Virus record (IMG/VR): IMGVR_UViG_3300037851_000671
Coordinates: 128,001-192,000 of that record
Strand: one strand, 5' to 3'
DNA length: 64,000 bases
Source: a virus
Taxonomy: Duplodnaviria; Caudoviricetes
Shown here: positions 36,474-41,671 of the stretch, in pieces
Layout of the letters: the number at the start of each line of letters is the position of its first letter
How positions within the stretch are numbered: position 1 is the first letter of the stretch
Program-made: the position numbers and the translations under genes
The notes under the pieces: generated by a model
Databases searched by the model: none
What the model saw: the letters and a program-made list of their open reading frames with translations, nothing else
What the model was told of the DNA's origin: nothing

Positions 36474-37226
36474 TCAACCAAGCAGCTTCTTTATCCAGTT
36501 CTTGGTGTCATCTATACTTGATACTCTGACGTTATCAAGCCCAATTTCAACAGAAGCATAATCGCACCCTCCTTCAAATAATGAATCACCAACATAGACA
36601 ATATCATCTTTTGATATGCGAAGCTGCTGCATCAGCTCGTCAATACCGAACTTCCGGCCACAGGAACGCGGCGTGAAATCGATGGAGGTCAGGCCAGCTA
36701 CCTTTACCTCAAAGGTTGGCAATTCCTGCGCAAGGCGAGGCAACACAGCAAGGCGCTTCTTGGCTTCGGGATCCCACTTGGCCTTCTCTTCCAGCGGGGC
36801 CTTCTGTCCAAGTGCGGAGAAGGTTACCTGTGTTTCGCGGTCTTCTACCTGCTTACCCCAAAGCTTCTCTGGAGTGAGTTCGGGAACCGCTTTCAACACT
36901 GACTCAATAACACGGTGAGCTTTTTCTATCTCCGTCTTTGTTGGGTTGGAATGATATTTAGCTATCCAACCATATTTGGACCAAGTTTGATACAGGGCGC
37001 CACCAGATGACGCAAGTATGTAAAGGTTATTCAATAGCTTCGTATCTTCGGTACCTATACTTCCAAGGAACTGTTTCTGGATTGTCTTCCAAGAAAGGCC
37101 AGATATAACCGCAACGTTATATTTACCTGTCTCAAGTATTTTCCTTAGCAGTGATGCCATCTCCTTATCGAGGGGCTGCTTGGACTCAGTAAGCGTACCA
37201 TTCAAATCAAATACGATTGTTTTCAT
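36474..37226 (-). CDS. HAD-IIB phosphomannomutase-like protein
   Basis: FDLNGTL, VISG, EDRETQVTFSALGQ, SIDF, YVGDSLFEGGCDY. Confidence 0.85.
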   Translation of the reverse strand: MKTIVFDLNGTLTESKQPLDKEMASLLRKILETGKYNVAVISGLSWKTIQKQFLGSIGTEDTKLLNNLYILASSGGALYQTWSKYGWIAKYHSNPTKTEIEKAHRVIESVLKAVPELTPEKLWGKQVEDRETQVTFSALGQKAPLEEKAKWDPEAKKRLAVLPRLAQELPTFEVKVAGLTSIDFTPRSCGRKFGIDELMQQLRISKDDIVYVGDSLFEGGCDYASVEIGLDNVRVSSIDDTKNWIKKLLG

Positions 37227-37355
37227 ACTTTGTGCATTTAATTGTGCATGATGTTATTGTTGTTTGAACGGCCTGTTATCTATCAGGCAGATCAATATCA
37301 TATGCGTGCCGGGTAGGTTTCTCGACCGGAAAGTTTCTAGCAAGGCCTTAAAAGC

Positions 37356-37391
37356 AAAAGGCCCGTCCGACCGAAGTCGAGACGAGCCTTT
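37356..37391 (-). terminator. Terminator closing the ncRNA/tRNA cluster
   Basis: AAAGGCTCGTCTCGAC-TTCG-GTCGGACGGGCCTTTT on minus strand. Confidence 0.85.
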
Positions 37392-37413
37392 GTTGGTAGC
37401 GTGTGTAGTAAAT

Positions 37414-37484
37414 GACAGCGAAAAAAAAGATCCGACCTTTTATTTGGTTTTGAATTCGAGATGAAAGATCGGTTGCGCGCTGTC
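37414..37484 (-). ncRNA. Structured RNA E1 (shared terminal motif, no T-arm)
   Basis: GACAGCG/CGCTGTC stem, CGCAA opposite AUC-U8, inner CCGATCTTT/AAAGGTCGG. Confidence 0.65.
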
Positions 37485-37487
37485 TAG

Positions 37488-37560
37488 TCGGGCGGGAGGG
37501 ATTCGAACCCCCAACTATTCGCTTATGAGGCGACTTTTCTAACCGTTGAAATACCACCCG
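37488..37560 (-). tRNA. tRNA-Met or tRNA-Ile2 (anticodon CAU)
   Basis: CGGGTGG/CCGCCCG acceptor, CT-CAT-AA loop, GGGGG-TTCGAAT-CCCTC; lacks initiator features. Confidence 0.88.
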
Positions 37561-37564
37561 AAAC

Positions 37565-37681
37565 GGCAACGAAATTATGTAGACAATAGGCCGGCTTTTT
37601 ACACCGTTTCCAAAGCCTCCGATGGATTCGAACCACCTAGCGCCAATTGATGATAGATGAAATGTCTACGAGCGCGTTGCC
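37565..37681 (-). ncRNA. Y RNA-like element E2
   Basis: GGCAACG/CGTTGCC and GTAGACA/TGTCTAC stems enclosing a T-arm GGTGG-TTCGAAT-CCATC. Confidence 0.75.
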
Positions 37682-37691
37682 AGAAATTAAA

Positions 37692-37826
37692 GAGTAACGA
37701 AAATTGCAGGACCACTGTTTTTTGTGCTACAATTACAACACATCCAGCCTTTCGACCGGAGCTGGGATTCGAACCCAGACCTCTTAATTCTCAATTTAGG
37801 ATGAATGATCCCACTGCGCGTTACTC
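37692..37826 (-). ncRNA. YrlA-like Y RNA E3 (circularly permuted tRNA mimic)
   Basis: GAGTAACG/CGTTACTC stem; then T-arm CTGGG-TTCGAAT-CCCAG, closed acceptor-like hairpin TCCGG/CTGGA, D-arm-like GTGTT-GTAATTGT-AGCAC. Confidence 0.8.
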
Positions 37827-37879
37827 GGTGCTTCGTTCTATGTTTCCACAGAATGAAACGAGAGCGTAAAGTAAACCGA

Positions 37880-37885
37880 GAATAT
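37880..37885 (-). promoter_or_regulatory. ATATTC candidate promoter for the ncRNA cluster
   Basis: ATATTCTCGG upstream of E3; divergent twin at 37942. Confidence 0.45.
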
Positions 37886-37941
37886 TGATAGATTCTCGAT
37901 TGGGGTTTCTGCACGATGCCTGCTTTTTTGGAGGCAAACGC

Positions 37942-37947
37942 ATATTC
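37942..37947 (+). promoter_or_regulatory. ATATTC candidate promoter for the + strand island
   Basis: ATATTCTCGG upstream of ORFs 37994 and 38160. Confidence 0.45.
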
Positions 37948-37993
37948 TCGGATTGTCTTTGAGACAGTTGAAAGGTGTTAGAGGGTGAGAGCT

Positions 37994-38185
37994 ATGTTTC
38001 AGCAATGTACAGCAGTTTCAGATTGTTCTTCTGAAAAAGAGTTAGCCGATTTAGATTCCCACATTCAACAGCTTAACTTTCGCCTCAGACGTGTTTTGAA
38101 GAATGTCAAGACAGTCAGAGAATCTTGCAAAACCACTGCCCAAGTTATTGGTGAGATAAATGGCCACTTCGAAAACCACAAATGA
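37994..38185 (+). CDS. Small coiled-coil hypothetical protein
   Basis: ATG 37994 after GAGGG. Confidence 0.55.
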   Translation: MFQQCTAVSDCSSEKELADLDSHIQQLNFRLRRVLKNVKTVRESCKTTAQVIGEINGHFENHK

Positions 38186-38894
38186 TCTTTTCTTAGAGAG
38201 ACTTGCAGAGGGCTTGGATTCAACATCAAAGCTTACTCATGCTTTATTGTCTGAGATCAGAGATTCTGAAGCGGATTTTGCCTCCATCAAAACCGAGCTG
38301 TCAATACTAAGAGAGAACGTTAAAGGACTGTCAGAGATTGTCAGGGAAGGTAATGGAGCCACATCTATTCTCACACGTATTGCGCTTATTGAGGCGCGAA
38401 TACAGAACATTGAGAAGTGGATGGAAACCCACATCGATCTTCATCAGGAGGAAAACGCTGACGTGAGCAAGGCTCAGGAACAGCTGAAAGACCTCGATAA
38501 GAAGATCGCCGCGTTAACTTCAGTTGTCAATGAACTAAAATCTCACGCCGATGATATTGAGAAGAAGAGGCGCGAGAGTATAGACCGCGAGCTAGAGCTT
38601 CAGCACGAGGACAAGAAGAGCAAGATAGGGGTAGCTGCCGAAAGACAGCAGACCATTATCAAAGTCCTTGGTGCCCTGTTGTTGGCCGTGCTTGGCGCTG
38701 CTGGTGGCTATTTAGCGAATTCTTGTCATGGGACCGCCGGAGCGGCGCAGCCAAGGAGCGTTATTGTTGCCCCCTCGGCTGCCCCTATCCTAGCTCAACC
38801 GGCCGAGCCGATCAAGGAGAATCTGACTCCTCAACCGCCGTCACAGCCGCTTCTTCAGCCTTCGGTTTCTGCTGTTGCAAAACGAACTCGTTGA
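38160..38894 (+). CDS. Coiled-coil protein with C-terminal transmembrane helix and Pro-rich tail
   Basis: IIKVLGALLLAVLGAAGGYL hydrophobic segment. Confidence 0.75.
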   Translation: MATSKTTNDLFLERLAEGLDSTSKLTHALLSEIRDSEADFASIKTELSILRENVKGLSEIVREGNGATSILTRIALIEARIQNIEKWMETHIDLHQEENADVSKAQEQLKDLDKKIAALTSVVNELKSHADDIEKKRRESIDRELELQHEDKKSKIGVAAERQQTIIKVLGALLLAVLGAAGGYLANSCHGTAGAAQPRSVIVAPSAAPILAQPAEPIKENLTPQPPSQPLLQPSVSAVAKRTR

Positions 38895-40458
38895 GATCAA
38901 AATCCCTGATCGCCTTGACAATGTTGATACCAACATACTCAAGGTTCTTGAACAGTGCCGGTGTCATAGTCTGATACACGGTGACACTACGATCACCGAA
39001 ATCAGCGCTGTGCCACTGGTAGTTGCTGGCATTGATAACCCAAAGCTCTGCCTCTGGGTTGACCTTCTTGCGATACTCAGCCCAAGCCCTTGTCAAAGGA
39101 GTGCCAGCGTTCTGCTGCTCATCAGTGATCAAAACCATCAAATCAAGCTTACGCTTGCTGTTGGTTGCGTTCTCGATTGCCAGAGAAACCGTAGTTCCAC
39201 CGGCAACCCTGAGAGCCAACAGATTCTTAACCTGATTCTTGCGATTCAGGCCAGTGATCCTTGGGCACATACCGCTAGCGTAGCCGTAACGACCTCCGTG
39301 ACCCTCCTCATACAAGGCGTTATCAAAAGTTGTGAACCAAAGGTTTGTAGCCTTTAGGAATGGCACTGCCAACAGACCAGCAGTCTGAAGAGGCTCCCCG
39401 TTCATAGAACCAGAGATATCAACAGACACACCAACTCTCTTACCTTCAATGGTAGGCATTGGTACGTCCAATGTTGCAACCATTGCATCGATAAGAATGT
39501 CCTTGACCTTTTCGTGCTTGGCGAAAATGTATGGCTTTGCAAAGTCAAGCGGAAGAGAGCGGCCATTCTGAACCTCTCCCATCTTTAGCTTGAGCGCGGT
39601 CAGTCCATCCGTGGTGTCGAAGACATTGCGCTCTTCGAGAGAACGGATGTTGAGCAACAGAGCTGTCAAACCCATCTGAGTCATCGAGGCCATTGCAAGA
39701 GGACCCTTGAGTCCCGCAAAACCCTTAACAACATCCCATGGGATTTCATTTTCCAGCATCATATCAGCGATCTTCTTTGGATCACTGAGCTTCTTCATCA
39801 TCTCAACAGCAACCTGCTTGGAACCGGTTGCCTCGGCCTTACGACCGTCCAAGACATACAGAATGACGTTTGCACGACCGTCTGTATAACGTGGGTGAAC
39901 CAAACGAACGAGCTGATTCAAAGCAGTTGGATACTTGAGCGTGAAGTTTTCAAGCTTCTTATATCCCCACTTCTCCATTGCCGCGCGCACCCACTTCTGA
40001 GCACGCGAACCAAAACCACGACCCAACTGCTTGCTCTTGCACAGCTCCACGAACTGGATCAATTGACCAGGGTGGAATGTGCTAAGCAATGCAATAGCTG
40101 CCTGCTTATTTACAGGAGAATCCAAGAACTGCTCGTTTGCAGATCCGGCAATGGCAGCAAGAGCTACCTTAACCATACCTTTCATATGGCTATTGCGGGC
40201 AAAGCAAGCCGCCTTGAGCAGGTACTCAGGGTCCAGCTTCGCGCGGTCAATGAGCAACGGCAGAGCTTCTTTTGCCGCGTCATCAACAGAGCGATAAAAC
40301 TGGTTCTTAAGAATACCAGTCAAAAGAACACGAGCAACCGAATCTTCAGGAAGCTCATTCTTGGACAGATATTCCGTCTTGGTCACAACCTTCTCAGGCT
40401 GACCCAACAGAGCCTTAACAAAAGAAGTGGACTTAACCTTGTTTGTTGTCTTATTCAT
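38812..40458 (-). CDS. TROVE + vWA protein (Ro60/Rsr orthologue)
   Basis: NQFY...DPEYLLKAACFAR HEAT-like TROVE region; MIDAS VDISGSM and LITDEQ. Confidence 0.88.
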   Translation of the reverse strand: MNKTTNKVKSTSFVKALLGQPEKVVTKTEYLSKNELPEDSVARVLLTGILKNQFYRSVDDAAKEALPLLIDRAKLDPEYLLKAACFARNSHMKGMVKVALAAIAGSANEQFLDSPVNKQAAIALLSTFHPGQLIQFVELCKSKQLGRGFGSRAQKWVRAAMEKWGYKKLENFTLKYPTALNQLVRLVHPRYTDGRANVILYVLDGRKAEATGSKQVAVEMMKKLSDPKKIADMMLENEIPWDVVKGFAGLKGPLAMASMTQMGLTALLLNIRSLEERNVFDTTDGLTALKLKMGEVQNGRSLPLDFAKPYIFAKHEKVKDILIDAMVATLDVPMPTIEGKRVGVSVDISGSMNGEPLQTAGLLAVPFLKATNLWFTTFDNALYEEGHGGRYGYASGMCPRITGLNRKNQVKNLLALRVAGGTTVSLAIENATNSKRKLDLMVLITDEQQNAGTPLTRAWAEYRKKVNPEAELWVINASNYQWHSADFGDRSVTVYQTMTPALFKNLEYVGINIVKAIRDFDLNEFVLQQQKPKAEEAAVTAVEESDSP

Positions 40459-40478
40459 GGTGAATTTCTCCTATAAAC

Positions 40479-40637
40479 GCGCCCTGATAAACAGAGCGAA
40501 ATGAGCCGTTTGCAATCGCCCAACGGCGACGGATTGCTCGCAAACTCTGAAATGGTCACAGCCACTGGAATCAAACCAGTGTCGGTAAACCCTAGCCATT
40601 AACAATAGGTAAATCTATTGTTAAATCAGGCACTGTG
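40479..40637 (-). ncRNA. Structured TROVE leader containing a CCA-ending tRNA-like element (40553-40637)
   Basis: CACAG../..GGCTGTG-ACCA, T-arm ACTGG-TTTGATT-CCAGT, 10-bp hairpin TTAACAATAG/CTATTGTTAA; ends GTGCCTGAT/ATCAGGGCGC can pair. Confidence 0.7.
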
Positions 40638-41008: not shown

Positions 41009-41671
41009 TCAAAAATCGTCCATCTGATCTGCGAATTTCGTAATTAGGTTTGACAGGGTATGAGGCTCACGTTTAATGAGTGCTACATATTCTGTTTTAG
41101 AGTTCACAAGCCAGTTCACAAGATCTACTGTGTTTATCGCATCAATCTCAGCAGAGTGCGCCCCAATCTTTGGAGTTATTCCAATACCAATCAGGAAGTT
41201 ATTGAGACCAAACTTTACCTTTGGCTCTCCTTGAGCTGCTGCAATTTTTTCAGCAAGTCCATGTTTCTTGACAGCTAATTGTGCGTACTGTTTTGTACAC
41301 AACCAAAGGTCTGCCGGAAATTCTTTGTCACATGACTTCCAGGCCGCGTGACAGAACTTCCTATCAAAAGGTGCGTTGTGAGCGTAGATACATCTATGCG
41401 CTCTGGTTTTGCCATCCTCTTCAAAAAAGGCATCGATTATGTCAATGGCCTCTTTCAATGGGATGCCAACATCAAGGTCATCGACAATTTTACCCTGTAT
41501 TTCGAGGGCTTGTGGACTTGCCCGCTCAGGATTATCAACCTTTATGTCTACTGATAGCTGCTTTCCTGTAGAAAGTCTTATGACAGAGAATTGGTTAATT
41601 TGATGCCATTCACATTTTAGACCAGTTGTTTCAGTGTCTATAATGTAGTATTCTATATCATTCGCGGCCAT
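41009..41671 (-). CDS. DEDDh 3'-5' exonuclease (DnaQ-like)
   Basis: DTETTG, AHNAPFD, AHSAEID. Confidence 0.9.
   Translation of the reverse strand: MAANDIEYYIIDTETTGLKCEWHQINQFSVIRLSTGKQLSVDIKVDNPERASPQALEIQGKIVDDLDVGIPLKEAIDIIDAFFEEDGKTRAHRCIYAHNAPFDRKFCHAAWKSCDKEFPADLWLCTKQYAQLAVKKHGLAEKIAAAQGEPKVKFGLNNFLIGIGITPKIGAHSAEIDAINTVDLVNWLVNSKTEYVALIKREPHTLSNLITKFADQMDDF

What the first reader, a model, noticed from the sequence alone, without database searches (positions are those of the whole stretch)
37414..37826. Covarying terminal motif stem-CG-CGC ... (A)UUU-CG-stem in three tandem RNAs
Seen on the minus strand: GACAG-CG-CGC...TTTT-CG-CTGTC (E1), GGCAA-CG-CGC...AATTT-CG-TTGCC (E2), GAGTAA-CG-CGC...AATTTT-CG-TTACTC (E3). 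Outer stem sequences differ yet remain fully paired, while the CG pairs and the asymmetric loop are invariant. A second stem follows in each. This is the pattern expected of a protein-binding RNA element, not simple duplication, and it differs from the metazoan Y RNA bulged-C helix.
Basis: seen in the sequence. Interest (0 to 1): 0.8.

Follow-up and report, generated by a model that had tools for sequence, protein, structure and literature searches.

The report
Phage Ro60 partner RNAs, new handle
A huge freshwater phage encodes a Ro60 RNA-binding protein and, just downstream and scattered through its tRNA gene arrays, a family of small Y-RNA-like RNAs that share one conserved, covarying "handle"; a copy of that handle also sits in front of the Ro60 gene's own ribosome-binding site.

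Summary
E3, E2 and E1 (minus strand, 37826-37414) each form a covarying closing stem ending in invariant C-G/G-C pairs. An asymmetric internal loop follows (5' CG+C/U/A, 3' U-tract), then a second covarying stem and an invariant UUCAUC.

The window comes from a 219-kb fragment of a huge phage. This genome has 12 such elements, and two related contigs have 11 and 13. 29 of these 36 abut a same-strand tRNA gene within 12 nt. Further copies lie downstream of the Ro60 gene in 11 more related loci.

The 548-aa ORF 985 nt upstream folds as full-length Ro60/Rsr. Long elements such as E3 have the YrlA layout (T arm, acceptor-like hairpin, D arm). E1 is a minimal, YrlB-like copy.

The elements lack the published GNCGAA motif and fall below Rfam's YrlA threshold. 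I therefore read them as a new sequence variant of phage Y RNAs: probable Ro60 ligands released by tRNA processing.

One new finding: the Ro60 mRNA leader carries a capped copy of the handle (UUUCG-stem-loop-stem-CGCG) just 5' of the Shine-Dalgarno, which suggests autoregulation.

This scan has noted analogous Ro60-plus-handle-RNA systems on other phage DNA, with different handles. There is no expression or binding data.

The parts
37692..37826 (-). E3, a YrlA-like Y RNA (135 nt). Stem 1: 37819-37826 with 37692-37699. Loop: 5' CGCA 37815-37818, 3' AAUUUU 37700-37705. Stem 2: 37806-37814 with 37706-37714. UUCAUC 37800-37805. T arm 37762-37778. Acceptor-like hairpin 37743-37760. Degenerate D arm 37724-37741.
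   Evidence: The covariance model, which was not trained on E3, hits it at E=4e-8.
37565..37681 (-). E2, a Y-like RNA (117 nt). Stem 1: 37675-37681 with 37565-37571. Loop: 5' CGCUC 37670-37674, 3' AUAAUUU 37572-37578. Stem 2: 37663-37669 with 37579-37585. UUCAUC 37656-37661. T arm 37621-37637. Branched stem 37593-37617. No D arm. Orthologous subtype in G001 and G002.
   Evidence: The covariance model, not trained on E2, hits it at E=7.5e-7.
37487..37560 (-). tRNA with anticodon CAU (Met or Ile2; no encoded CCA). It lies 3-4 nt after E2 and 2 nt before E1.
   Evidence: ARAGORN and Rfam tRNA at 60.8 bits; spacers.
37414..37484 (-). E1, a minimal (YrlB-like) Y RNA of 71 nt. Stem 1: 37478-37484 with 37414-37420. 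Loop: 5' CGCAA 37473-37477, 3' AUCUUUUUUUU 37421-37431. Stem 2: 37466-37472 with 37432-37438. UUCAUC 37460-37465. A-rich 21-nt apical loop.
   Evidence: covariance model E=1.2e-13 (E1 was in the training set).
37350..37391 (-). Intrinsic terminator that closes the E3-E2-tRNA-E1 unit.
   Evidence: Fold of -25.1 kcal/mol, z=-4.45, followed by a U-run.
38812..40458 (-). Ro60/Rsr orthologue (548 aa): HEAT-repeat ring plus vWA domain with an intact MIDAS site (D347 x S349 x S351, T422, D446).
   Evidence: Pfam vWA_Ro60; PHROG 850; 94 homologues; invariant MIDAS residues; AlphaFold2 pLDDT 79.5; the top 13 Foldseek hits are all Ro60/Rsr, with 2nvo at TM 0.70/0.76.
40478..40501 (-). Ro60 mRNA leader hairpin that copies the Y handle: UUU (40499-40501), CG-CUCUG-UUUAU-CAGGG-CG (40480-40498), CG (40478-40479). 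It sits 5 nt upstream of the SD AGGAG (40468-40472) and the ATG (40456-40458).
   Evidence: The same layout, with 8 different complementary stems, is found in 10 of 12 leaders of Ro homologues at >=58% identity.
41009..41671 (-). RNase T-like DEDD exonuclease gene, a conserved upstream neighbour of Ro60 in this phage clade and a possible effector.
   Evidence: Pfam RNase_T. The same neighbour is present in 8 related loci.

Best explanation
E3, E2 and E1 are small non-coding Y-RNA-like RNAs. They are the RNA partners of the phage's own Ro60 protein.

**Structure (shown).** Each RNA pairs its 5' and 3' ends into a 7-bp stem that ends in C-G and G-C pairs. The junction formed by that helix end, the unpaired 5' CG(C/U/A) and the opposite U-tract is the conserved handle. 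A second stem and an invariant UUCAUC follow.

**Ro60 docking (inferred).** I infer that Ro60 docks on this handle.

**Body (shape shown, function inferred).** The body beyond the second stem is exchangeable. In E3 it is a tRNA look-alike (T arm, closed acceptor-like hairpin, D arm). In E2 it is a T arm plus a branched stem. In E1 it is only an A-rich loop. By analogy with the Y RNAs of Deinococcus and Salmonella, the bodies probably tether Ro60 to different partners or gate its cavity, and probably act in RNA trimming or quality control during infection.

**Release from precursors (layout shown, cleavage inferred).** The RNAs are made inside polycistronic tRNA-type transcripts. RNase P cutting at the 5' end of the next tRNA, and 3'-end processing of the preceding tRNA, would free them with almost no flank.

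**Autoregulation (sequence shown, function inferred).** A capped copy of the handle lies just upstream of the Ro60 Shine-Dalgarno sequence. Free Ro60 would bind it and repress its own translation, and the Y RNAs would titrate Ro60 away.
For: - **Structure and covariation:**
- **Family size and specificity:** 12, 11 and 13 copies in three related contigs, all but two on the tRNA strand. The unbiased descriptor finds no member without UUCAUC. The covariance model gives E-values down to 5e-16 and no hits elsewhere.
- **Link to Ro60:** the ORF is a Ro60 by fold. 2-4 elements lie 0.3-3 kb downstream on the same strand in 14 loci whose Ro60 is 51-100% identical.
- **YrlA layout in long copies:** for example T arm, 7-8-bp hairpin, then UAGCUCAGUUGGUAGAGC. 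Rfam YrlA gives full-length but sub-threshold matches to several paralogues.
- **tRNA punctuation:** 29 of 36 elements lie within 12 nt of a same-strand tRNA, and 12 on both sides.
- **Leader mimic:**
- **Published precedent:** Ro60 binds Y RNAs encoded within 4 kb on the same strand, including in phages (PMC4201824). Thermus phage phiLo Ro60 binds two phage Yrl RNAs (PMC12135203).
Against: - No RNA-seq run holds this DNA, so neither expression nor RNA ends are shown.
- Binding to Ro60 is untested.
- The published Ro-contact motif GNCGAAN0-1G is absent, and Rfam YrlA is not reached (<=42.5 bits against a threshold of 69; none of E1-E3 is hit).
- One Ro60-bearing contig (G003) has lost the local cluster and has no tRNAs. 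The contig with 11 elements (G001) has no Ro60 gene. They may be two halves of one genome, but that is unproven.
- The leader hairpin motif is no more frequent genome-wide than in shuffles. It is missing from Ro60 leaders below about 58% identity although their Y RNAs keep the handle. A MAFFT-based RNAalifold of the leaders is weak.
Confidence: 0.75

Rival explanations
1. The elements are structured spacers or processing signals of the tRNA arrays, or decayed permuted tRNA pseudogenes. They would guide nucleases or stabilise precursors and would have no specific partnership with Ro60.
For: 29 of 36 elements abut tRNA genes. Many lie 45-50 kb from the Ro60 gene. G001 carries 11 copies and no detectable Ro60. 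Long copies contain tRNA-derived arms.
Against: Short copies with no tRNA-like part keep the full handle, so selection acts on the handle itself. A cluster follows Ro60 on the same strand in 14 loci, including loci with no adjacent tRNA (L176, L184, L185, L194, L202). The handle is copied in the Ro60 leader. The layout is that of YrlA, a proven Ro60 ligand (PMC4201824).
Confidence: 0.1
2. The handle is bound by a different phage or host protein that also regulates Ro60 synthesis, for example the conserved RNase T-like exonuclease, a kinase, or a translational repressor. Ro60 itself would bind elsewhere or bind other RNAs.
For: The published Ro-contact motif is absent (PMC4201824). An RNase T-like gene, and often an AAA_33 kinase gene, sit next to Ro60 across the clade.
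Against: Autoregulation by the encoded protein is the simplest reading of a ligand mimic in its own leader. All characterised Y RNAs carry the Ro60 site in the stem formed by their 5' and 3' ends (bioRxiv 10.1101/312249). There is no evidence for another RNA-binding protein.
Confidence: 0.1
3. The copies are a mobile or recombinogenic DNA repeat (MITE-like, with terminal inverted repeats) that spreads within tRNA arrays and has no RNA function.
For: Multiple copies per genome with terminal inverted complementarity. There is one partial tandem duplication of the 5' end at G001:51381-51406.
Against: The terminal stems differ between copies yet stay complementary, including G-U pairs that work only in RNA. 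All copies share the transcription strand of the tRNAs or of Ro60. No target-site duplications or transposase genes were seen. Orthologous copies keep their positions across phages.
Confidence: 0.03

Closest known systems
Bacterial and phage YrlA / YrlB Y RNAs bound by Rsr (Ro60): Chen et al. 2014, PMC4201824; Wang et al. 2018, bioRxiv 10.1101/312249; Rfam RF02553
   Same: They are encoded within 4 kb of a Ro60 orthologue on the same strand. The 5' and 3' ends pair into a stem that is interrupted by an internal loop. The body follows the order variable region, T arm, closed acceptor-like hairpin, D arm (E3 and many paralogues). Short partner RNAs without the tRNA-like body also exist (E1, like YrlB). 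Several Y RNAs can occur per locus.
   Different: The handle sequence differs: AACG-CG(C/U/A) ... UUUUCGUU plus GAUC-N-UUCAUC, in place of GNCGAAN0-1G. Both strands of the handle are conserved, not only the 5' strand. There are 11-13 paralogues per genome, and most are interleaved with tRNA genes far from Ro60. The Rfam YrlA model is matched only below threshold.
Thermus phage phiLo Ro60 with Yrl1 and Yrl2 (PMC12135203; PDB 9KOP, 9L5Y)
   Same: A phage-encoded Ro60 with phage-encoded stem/internal-loop/stem RNAs next to the gene. The predicted Ro60 here superposes on 9KOP and 9L5Y.
   Different: The phiLo RNAs carry the CGAA motif, lie upstream of the gene and number two. No tRNA-array embedding and no leader mimic are reported for phiLo.
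Metazoan Y RNAs with Ro60 (PDB 1YVP)
   Same: A closing stem formed by the RNA ends serves as the protein handle, and the variable loop or body serves as the effector module.
   Different: There is no bulged-C helix (GGUCCGA/UUGACU). Metazoan Y RNAs are made from Pol III genes rather than from tRNA-type operons.
Autoregulatory ligand mimics in mRNA leaders (ribosomal protein operators such as S8, L1 and L10; T4 RegA and gp32; MS2 coat operator). Established knowledge, cited from memory.
   Same: A hairpin that copies the protein's primary RNA site overlaps or abuts the ribosome-binding site of the protein's own gene.
   Different: This has not been described for Ro60, and here it is only inferred from sequence.
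Handle-RNA arrays beside Ro60-like genes of Felix O1-type phages
   Same: A Ro-like gene is followed by small RNAs between tRNA genes that share one closing handle and carry partly tRNA-like bodies.
   Different: The Felix O1 handle is different (CAGAAGACC..UUACAGCAA ... GGUCUGG), and my covariance model does not hit it.

Membership tests
YrlA/YrlB-type bacterial Y RNA (Chen et al. 2014) | Encoded within 4 kb of a Ro60 orthologue on the same DNA strand | tested here: met
   E3 starts 985 nt after the Ro60 stop codon, on the same strand. The Ro60 identity rests on fold. The same arrangement occurs in 14 loci.
YrlA/YrlB-type bacterial Y RNA (Chen et al. 2014) | The 5' and 3' ends pair into a long stem that contains the Ro60 site | tested here: met
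   Two covarying helices separated by a conserved internal loop. Whether Ro60 binds there could not be tested.
YrlA/YrlB-type bacterial Y RNA (Chen et al. 2014) | GNCGAAN0-1G motif near the 5' end | tested here: not met
   The motif here is AACGCG(C/U/A). Only one paralogue (G002:122002-122089) reads CGCGAAUG. By contrast, Streptomyces phage Daubenski shows the canonical GUCGAAAG next to its Ro gene.
YrlA/YrlB-type bacterial Y RNA (Chen et al. 2014) | tRNA-like effector domain in the order T arm, acceptor-like hairpin, D arm | tested here: met
   Met for E3, whose D loop is degenerate, and for about 15 paralogues with canonical D arms. Partial for E2 (T arm only). Absent in E1, which is YrlB-like.
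YrlA/YrlB-type bacterial Y RNA (Chen et al. 2014) | Match to Rfam YrlA (RF02553) at the gathering score of 69 bits | tested here: not met
   No hit in the window even at E<=10. The best paralogues reach 42.5, 42.3 and 37.8 bits, some over the full model length.
YrlA/YrlB-type bacterial Y RNA (Chen et al. 2014) | Physically bound by Ro60 / stabilised by it | not testable with these tools
   No RNA or RIP data; no RNA run holds the sequence.
Ro60 / Rsr protein family | HEAT-repeat (TROVE) ring followed by a vWA domain with a MIDAS site | tested here: met
   The top 13 Foldseek PDB hits are all Ro60/Rsr over about 520 columns. DxSxS...T...D is invariant in 23 homologues. Pfam vWA_Ro60 passes its cut-off. 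Pfam TROVE itself is not hit by sequence.

The most novel reading that the evidence does not exclude
Huge phages of this clade run a modular Ro60 system. A dozen adaptor RNAs share one handle and carry different bodies (tRNA mimics, T-arm-only bodies, empty loops). They are produced by tRNA punctuation and direct one Ro60 ring to different RNA-processing partners or substrates. Ro60 senses the pool of free handles through a handle mimic in its own mRNA leader and sets its translation accordingly. This would be the first autoregulatory circuit described for any Ro60.
Probability: 0.3. Interest if true: 0.75.

Novelty: new variant of a known kind. Interest (0 to 1): 0.6.

Why it matters
Ro60 and Y RNAs are conserved from bacteria to humans, and Ro60 is a major autoantigen. 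What defines a Y RNA handle, and what the variable bodies do, is still unclear, especially for the tRNA-like YrlA class, whose effector is unknown.

This phage clade offers a natural series for that question. It has more than 60 sequenced handles with clear covariation, three body types on the same handle, minimal copies of about 60-70 nt, and a handle copy in the Ro60 leader. Together these delimit the recognition element to a helix end plus two short single strands. That makes Ro60 recognition and a possible feedback loop directly testable with a few gel shifts and reporter fusions.

It also shows that the intergenic gaps in phage tRNA arrays can hide whole families of non-tRNA RNAs that current annotation and Rfam miss.

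Tried and rejected
- **Rfam.** A scan of the window at gathering score, and of 37000-38300 at E<=10, gave only the tRNA and noise.
- **GenBank phages.** blastn of the locus found no match. tblastn found only Ro-like proteins of actinophages and one 635-kb uncultured phage at 22-25% identity; the latter has no such elements near its gene.
- **RtcB.** Searched for because of the Rsr-RtcB link; absent from all four contigs.
- **RNA evidence.** Only DNA metagenome runs (freshwater) hold the sequence.
- **Promoter of the E3-E2-tRNA-E1 unit.** Not identified; the consensus scan gave nothing convincing. A conserved 17-nt motif at 37940-37956 is unique in the genome but may belong to the divergent antisense gene.
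The T-arm-like hairpin near 40560-40580 is not conserved in relatives, where that stretch is coding.
- **Loci L174 and L177 (Ro60 at 42-47% identity).** No elements were found, but only about 1.3 kb of downstream flank is held.
- **Matching changes between leader and Y handles.** I expected the leader hairpin and the Y handles to change together in phages whose leader lacks the CG pairs. L195 keeps CG in its Y RNAs, so there is no such support.
- **RNAalifold on a MAFFT alignment of the ten leaders.** It recovers only 5 pairs with weak energy, because the stems and loops differ in length.
- **Complex prediction.** Not used: tethering in known Ro60 particles is through RNA, and gene adjacency alone is not reason enough.

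Full report
**What is in the window**

On the minus strand, 37826-37414 holds three elements with one tRNA between them. E3 is 135 nt, E2 is 117 nt and E1 is 71 nt. The tRNA (anticodon CAU, 37560-37487) lies between E2 and E1. The spacers are 10, 4 and 2 nt, and a strong intrinsic terminator follows at 37391-37350.

There is a closing stem of 5 variable pairs plus invariant C-G and G-C pairs. An asymmetric internal loop follows (5' CGC+N1-2, 3' N2-7 + UUU/UUUU), then a second stem of 7-9 pairs. I also found an invariant UUCAUC directly after the 5' strand of the second stem.

**More than chance, and a family**

The window is positions 128001-192000 of a 218,772-bp virus record judged about half complete.

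- A descriptor for stem + CGCGC ... TTCG + complementary stem gives 0-3 hits in shuffled genomes. In the real genome it gives 7 minus-strand hits that all carry UUCAUC.
- Relaxing the third loop base brings the count to 12 in this genome. That confirms an earlier first-reader count. Two related contigs, G001 and G002, hold 11 and 13.
- Across these 36 copies, stem-1 positions 1-5 pair in 33-36 of 36, with up to five pair types per position. Stem-2 positions -2 to -7 pair in 35-36 of 36.
- Exchanging 3' strands between copies never reaches the observed pairing (0/10000 for each stem).
- A covariance model built from 13 short copies finds 41 matches in the held loci. These include E3 (E=4e-8) and E2 (E=7.5e-7), which were not in the training set.
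- On that 41-member alignment, 94.7% of cells pair (78% in shuffles) and 10 of 12 pairs carry double-sided changes. The covariation score is 0.482 against 0.160 (0/500), and the slid controls score 0.03-0.10.

The loop triplet is CG followed by C (24), U (7) or A (4), with one CUU. A more distant phage has CAU. So 'invariant CGC' is true only locally.

**The protein**

The ORF at 38812-40458 (minus strand, 548 aa) ends 985 nt upstream of E3.

- It hits Pfam vWA_Ro60 and PHROG 850, 'RNA-binding protein'.
- It is 22-25% identical to annotated Ro-like proteins of actinophages over about 85% of its length.
- It has 94 homologues, some on contigs of 390-459 kb, and some named 60 kDa SS-A/Ro by JGI.
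- The MIDAS residues are invariant.
- An AlphaFold2 model (pLDDT 79.5) has Ro60/Rsr structures as its best 13 PDB matches: D. radiodurans Rsr 2nvo at TM 0.70/0.76, then Xenopus, human and phage phiLo Ro60.

It is a full-length Ro60.

**Linkage of RNA and protein**

Wherever enough downstream flank is held, 2-4 family members follow the Ro60 gene on the same strand. This holds in G000, G002, L173, L175, L176, L181, L183, L184, L185, L189, L192, L194, L195 and L202, whose Ro60 is 51-100% identical.

The exceptions are G003, which has only a decayed remnant, and two loci with 1.3-kb flanks.

G003 has no tRNA genes at all. G001 comes from the same sample, has 40 tRNAs and 11 elements, and has no Ro60. 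The two share a 103-nt stretch at 96% identity. They may be two parts of one genome, but I could not prove it.

**Anatomy of the bodies**

Long members have, after UUCAUC, the following parts in order:

1. a 12-38-nt variable stretch;
2. a 5-bp T arm with a UUCGAAU-type loop;
3. directly afterwards, a hairpin with a 7-8-bp stem;
4. U plus a purine;
5. a D arm such as GCUC-AGUUGGUA-GAGC;
6. an A-rich linker and the 3' strand of stem 2.

This is exactly the YrlA topology, in which the acceptor stem is closed and the anticodon stem is continued into the Ro60 stem (PMC4201824; bioRxiv 10.1101/312249).

- E3 has this layout with a degenerate D loop.
- E2 belongs to a subtype with a T arm and a branched stem, conserved in all three contigs.
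- E1 is a minimal copy.

Rfam's YrlA model gives full-length but sub-threshold matches to several paralogues (up to 42.5 bits; the threshold is 69). It gives none to E1-E3. The published contact motif GNCGAAN0-1G is absent, whereas an actinophage examined for comparison shows it beside its Ro gene. I therefore do not file these RNAs in the Rfam family. I call them a new sequence variant of the same kind.

**Biogenesis**

29 of the 36 elements lie within 12 nt of a same-strand tRNA gene, and 12 have one on both sides. Typical gaps are 0-6 nt. In the window, the tRNA stands between E2 and E1.

The tRNA-processing enzymes would therefore cut almost exactly at the base of stem 1. This step is inferred. 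No RNA data exist for this phage.

**A handle copy in the Ro60 leader**

The Ro60 5' leader reads UUU-CG-CUCUG-UUUAU-CAGGG-CG-CG, followed 5 nt later by AGGAG and the ATG (40501-40456). Connecting the two strands of a Y handle through a loop gives exactly this: UUUU-CG-stem'-loop-stem-CG-CG.

The same arrangement occurs in 10 of 12 leaders of Ro60 homologues at >=58% identity. It occurs with eight different, always complementary, stems: CUCUG, CACC, CCUUA, CUCA, CAC, CCAU, UCCAA/UCC and GCUA. It always lies 1-7 nt before the Shine-Dalgarno sequence.

Three caveats apply:
- the motif is not rarer genome-wide than in shuffles;
- an automatic alignment gives weak RNAalifold support;
- more distant leaders lack it although their Y RNAs keep the handle.

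I read it as a probable translational operator bound by Ro60, at roughly 45% confidence. It is also an independent hint that the handle is Ro60's site.

**Context**

An RNase T-like exonuclease gene precedes Ro60 here (41009-41671) and in eight related loci. It is often accompanied by an AAA_33 kinase. CCA-adding enzyme, metallo-beta-lactamase, RNA ligase and PARP genes lie nearby in some relatives. RtcB is absent.

This fits a role in RNA end-processing or quality control. By analogy with the Ro60-Y RNA-PNPase particle, the exonuclease is a candidate effector, but this is pure inference.

**Relation to earlier notes of this scan**

First-reader notes on this genome counted 12 elements and pointed to the minimal copies; I confirm both. 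Follow-up reports on other phages (Felix O1 type and others) describe Ro-like genes followed by handle RNAs in tRNA arrays. I looked at Felix O1: the theme is the same, but its handle is a different sequence and my model does not match it.

**Verdict**

The feature is a new handle variant of phage Y RNAs, expanded into a tRNA-punctuated multigene family, with a candidate autoregulatory mimic in the Ro60 leader. Binding, expression and function remain to be shown.

Noticed in passing
window 40478-40501 (-): The Ro60 mRNA leader carries a capped copy of the Y handle immediately 5' of the Shine-Dalgarno sequence. The layout is conserved, with different complementary stems, in 10 of 12 related leaders. 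It may be a Ro60 autoregulatory operator.
   Followed up: partly
window 37940-37956 (-): The 17-nt motif ACAATCCGAGAATATGC is conserved upstream of the first element in G000, G002 and G003 and is unique in each genome. It lies between the Y cluster and a divergent antisense gene pair, so it could be the promoter or operator of either.
   Followed up: partly
window 38160-38894 (+): A 244-aa coiled-coil ORF lies antisense between Ro60 and the Y cluster and overlaps the Ro60 3' end by 83 nt. It is conserved in the same position in relatives (L002, L175). Its function is unknown.
   Followed up: no
window ~40560-40580 (-): A T-arm-like hairpin (CACUGG-UUUGAUU-CCAGUG) lies about 100 nt upstream of the Ro60 start. 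It is not conserved in relatives, where this stretch is coding.
   Followed up: yes
window ~39975-40011 (-), genome 168007: A 7-bp hairpin with the same UUCG ... CGCG flanks lies inside the Ro60 coding sequence. It was not found in the G002 orthologue and is probably chance.
   Followed up: partly
G001:31840-31934 and G002:163347-163423: ARAGORN calls a tRNA with anticodon UUA ('Stop') in G001 and one with anticodon CUA ('Pyl') in G002. These are possible suppressor tRNAs and hint at stop-codon recoding in this phage clade.
   Followed up: no
G001:51381-51406 (-): A partial tandem duplication of the 5' handle (UGUAACGCGCUUGAAGAUCAUAUAAC) lies directly in front of a complete 67-nt element.
   Followed up: no
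G001 and G003 (same sample, 3300035208): G003 has Ro60 but no tRNAs or Y elements. G001 has 40 tRNAs and 11 elements but no Ro60, and IMG/VR calls it 100% complete with inverted terminal repeats. The two share 103 nt at 96% identity. They may be parts of one genome, which would make the completeness call doubtful.
   Followed up: partly
L172:2987-3110 (Streptomyces phage Daubenski, MN444876.1 ~81040-81165): An unannotated YrlA-like RNA with the canonical GUCGAAAG motif and a T arm lies directly after tRNA-Asp, about 0.8 kb upstream of the annotated Ro-like gene. Known-type phage Y RNAs can therefore also abut tRNAs.
   Followed up: partly
L210:23860-24720 (Salmonella phage Felix O1, NC_005282): The gaps between tRNA genes after ORF42 ('RNA-binding protein') hold repeated RNAs with a different handle (CAGAAGACC..UUACAGCAA ... 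GGUCUGG). One has a T arm and a D arm. They are unannotated.
   Followed up: partly
relatives L173, L176, L177 and loci: The gene order RNase T-like exonuclease, AAA_33 P-loop kinase, Ro60 is conserved. CCA-adding enzyme, metallo-beta-lactamase, RNA ligase (PF09414), PARP and ADP-ribosylglycohydrolase genes lie nearby. This looks like an RNA-repair or modification neighbourhood.
   Followed up: no
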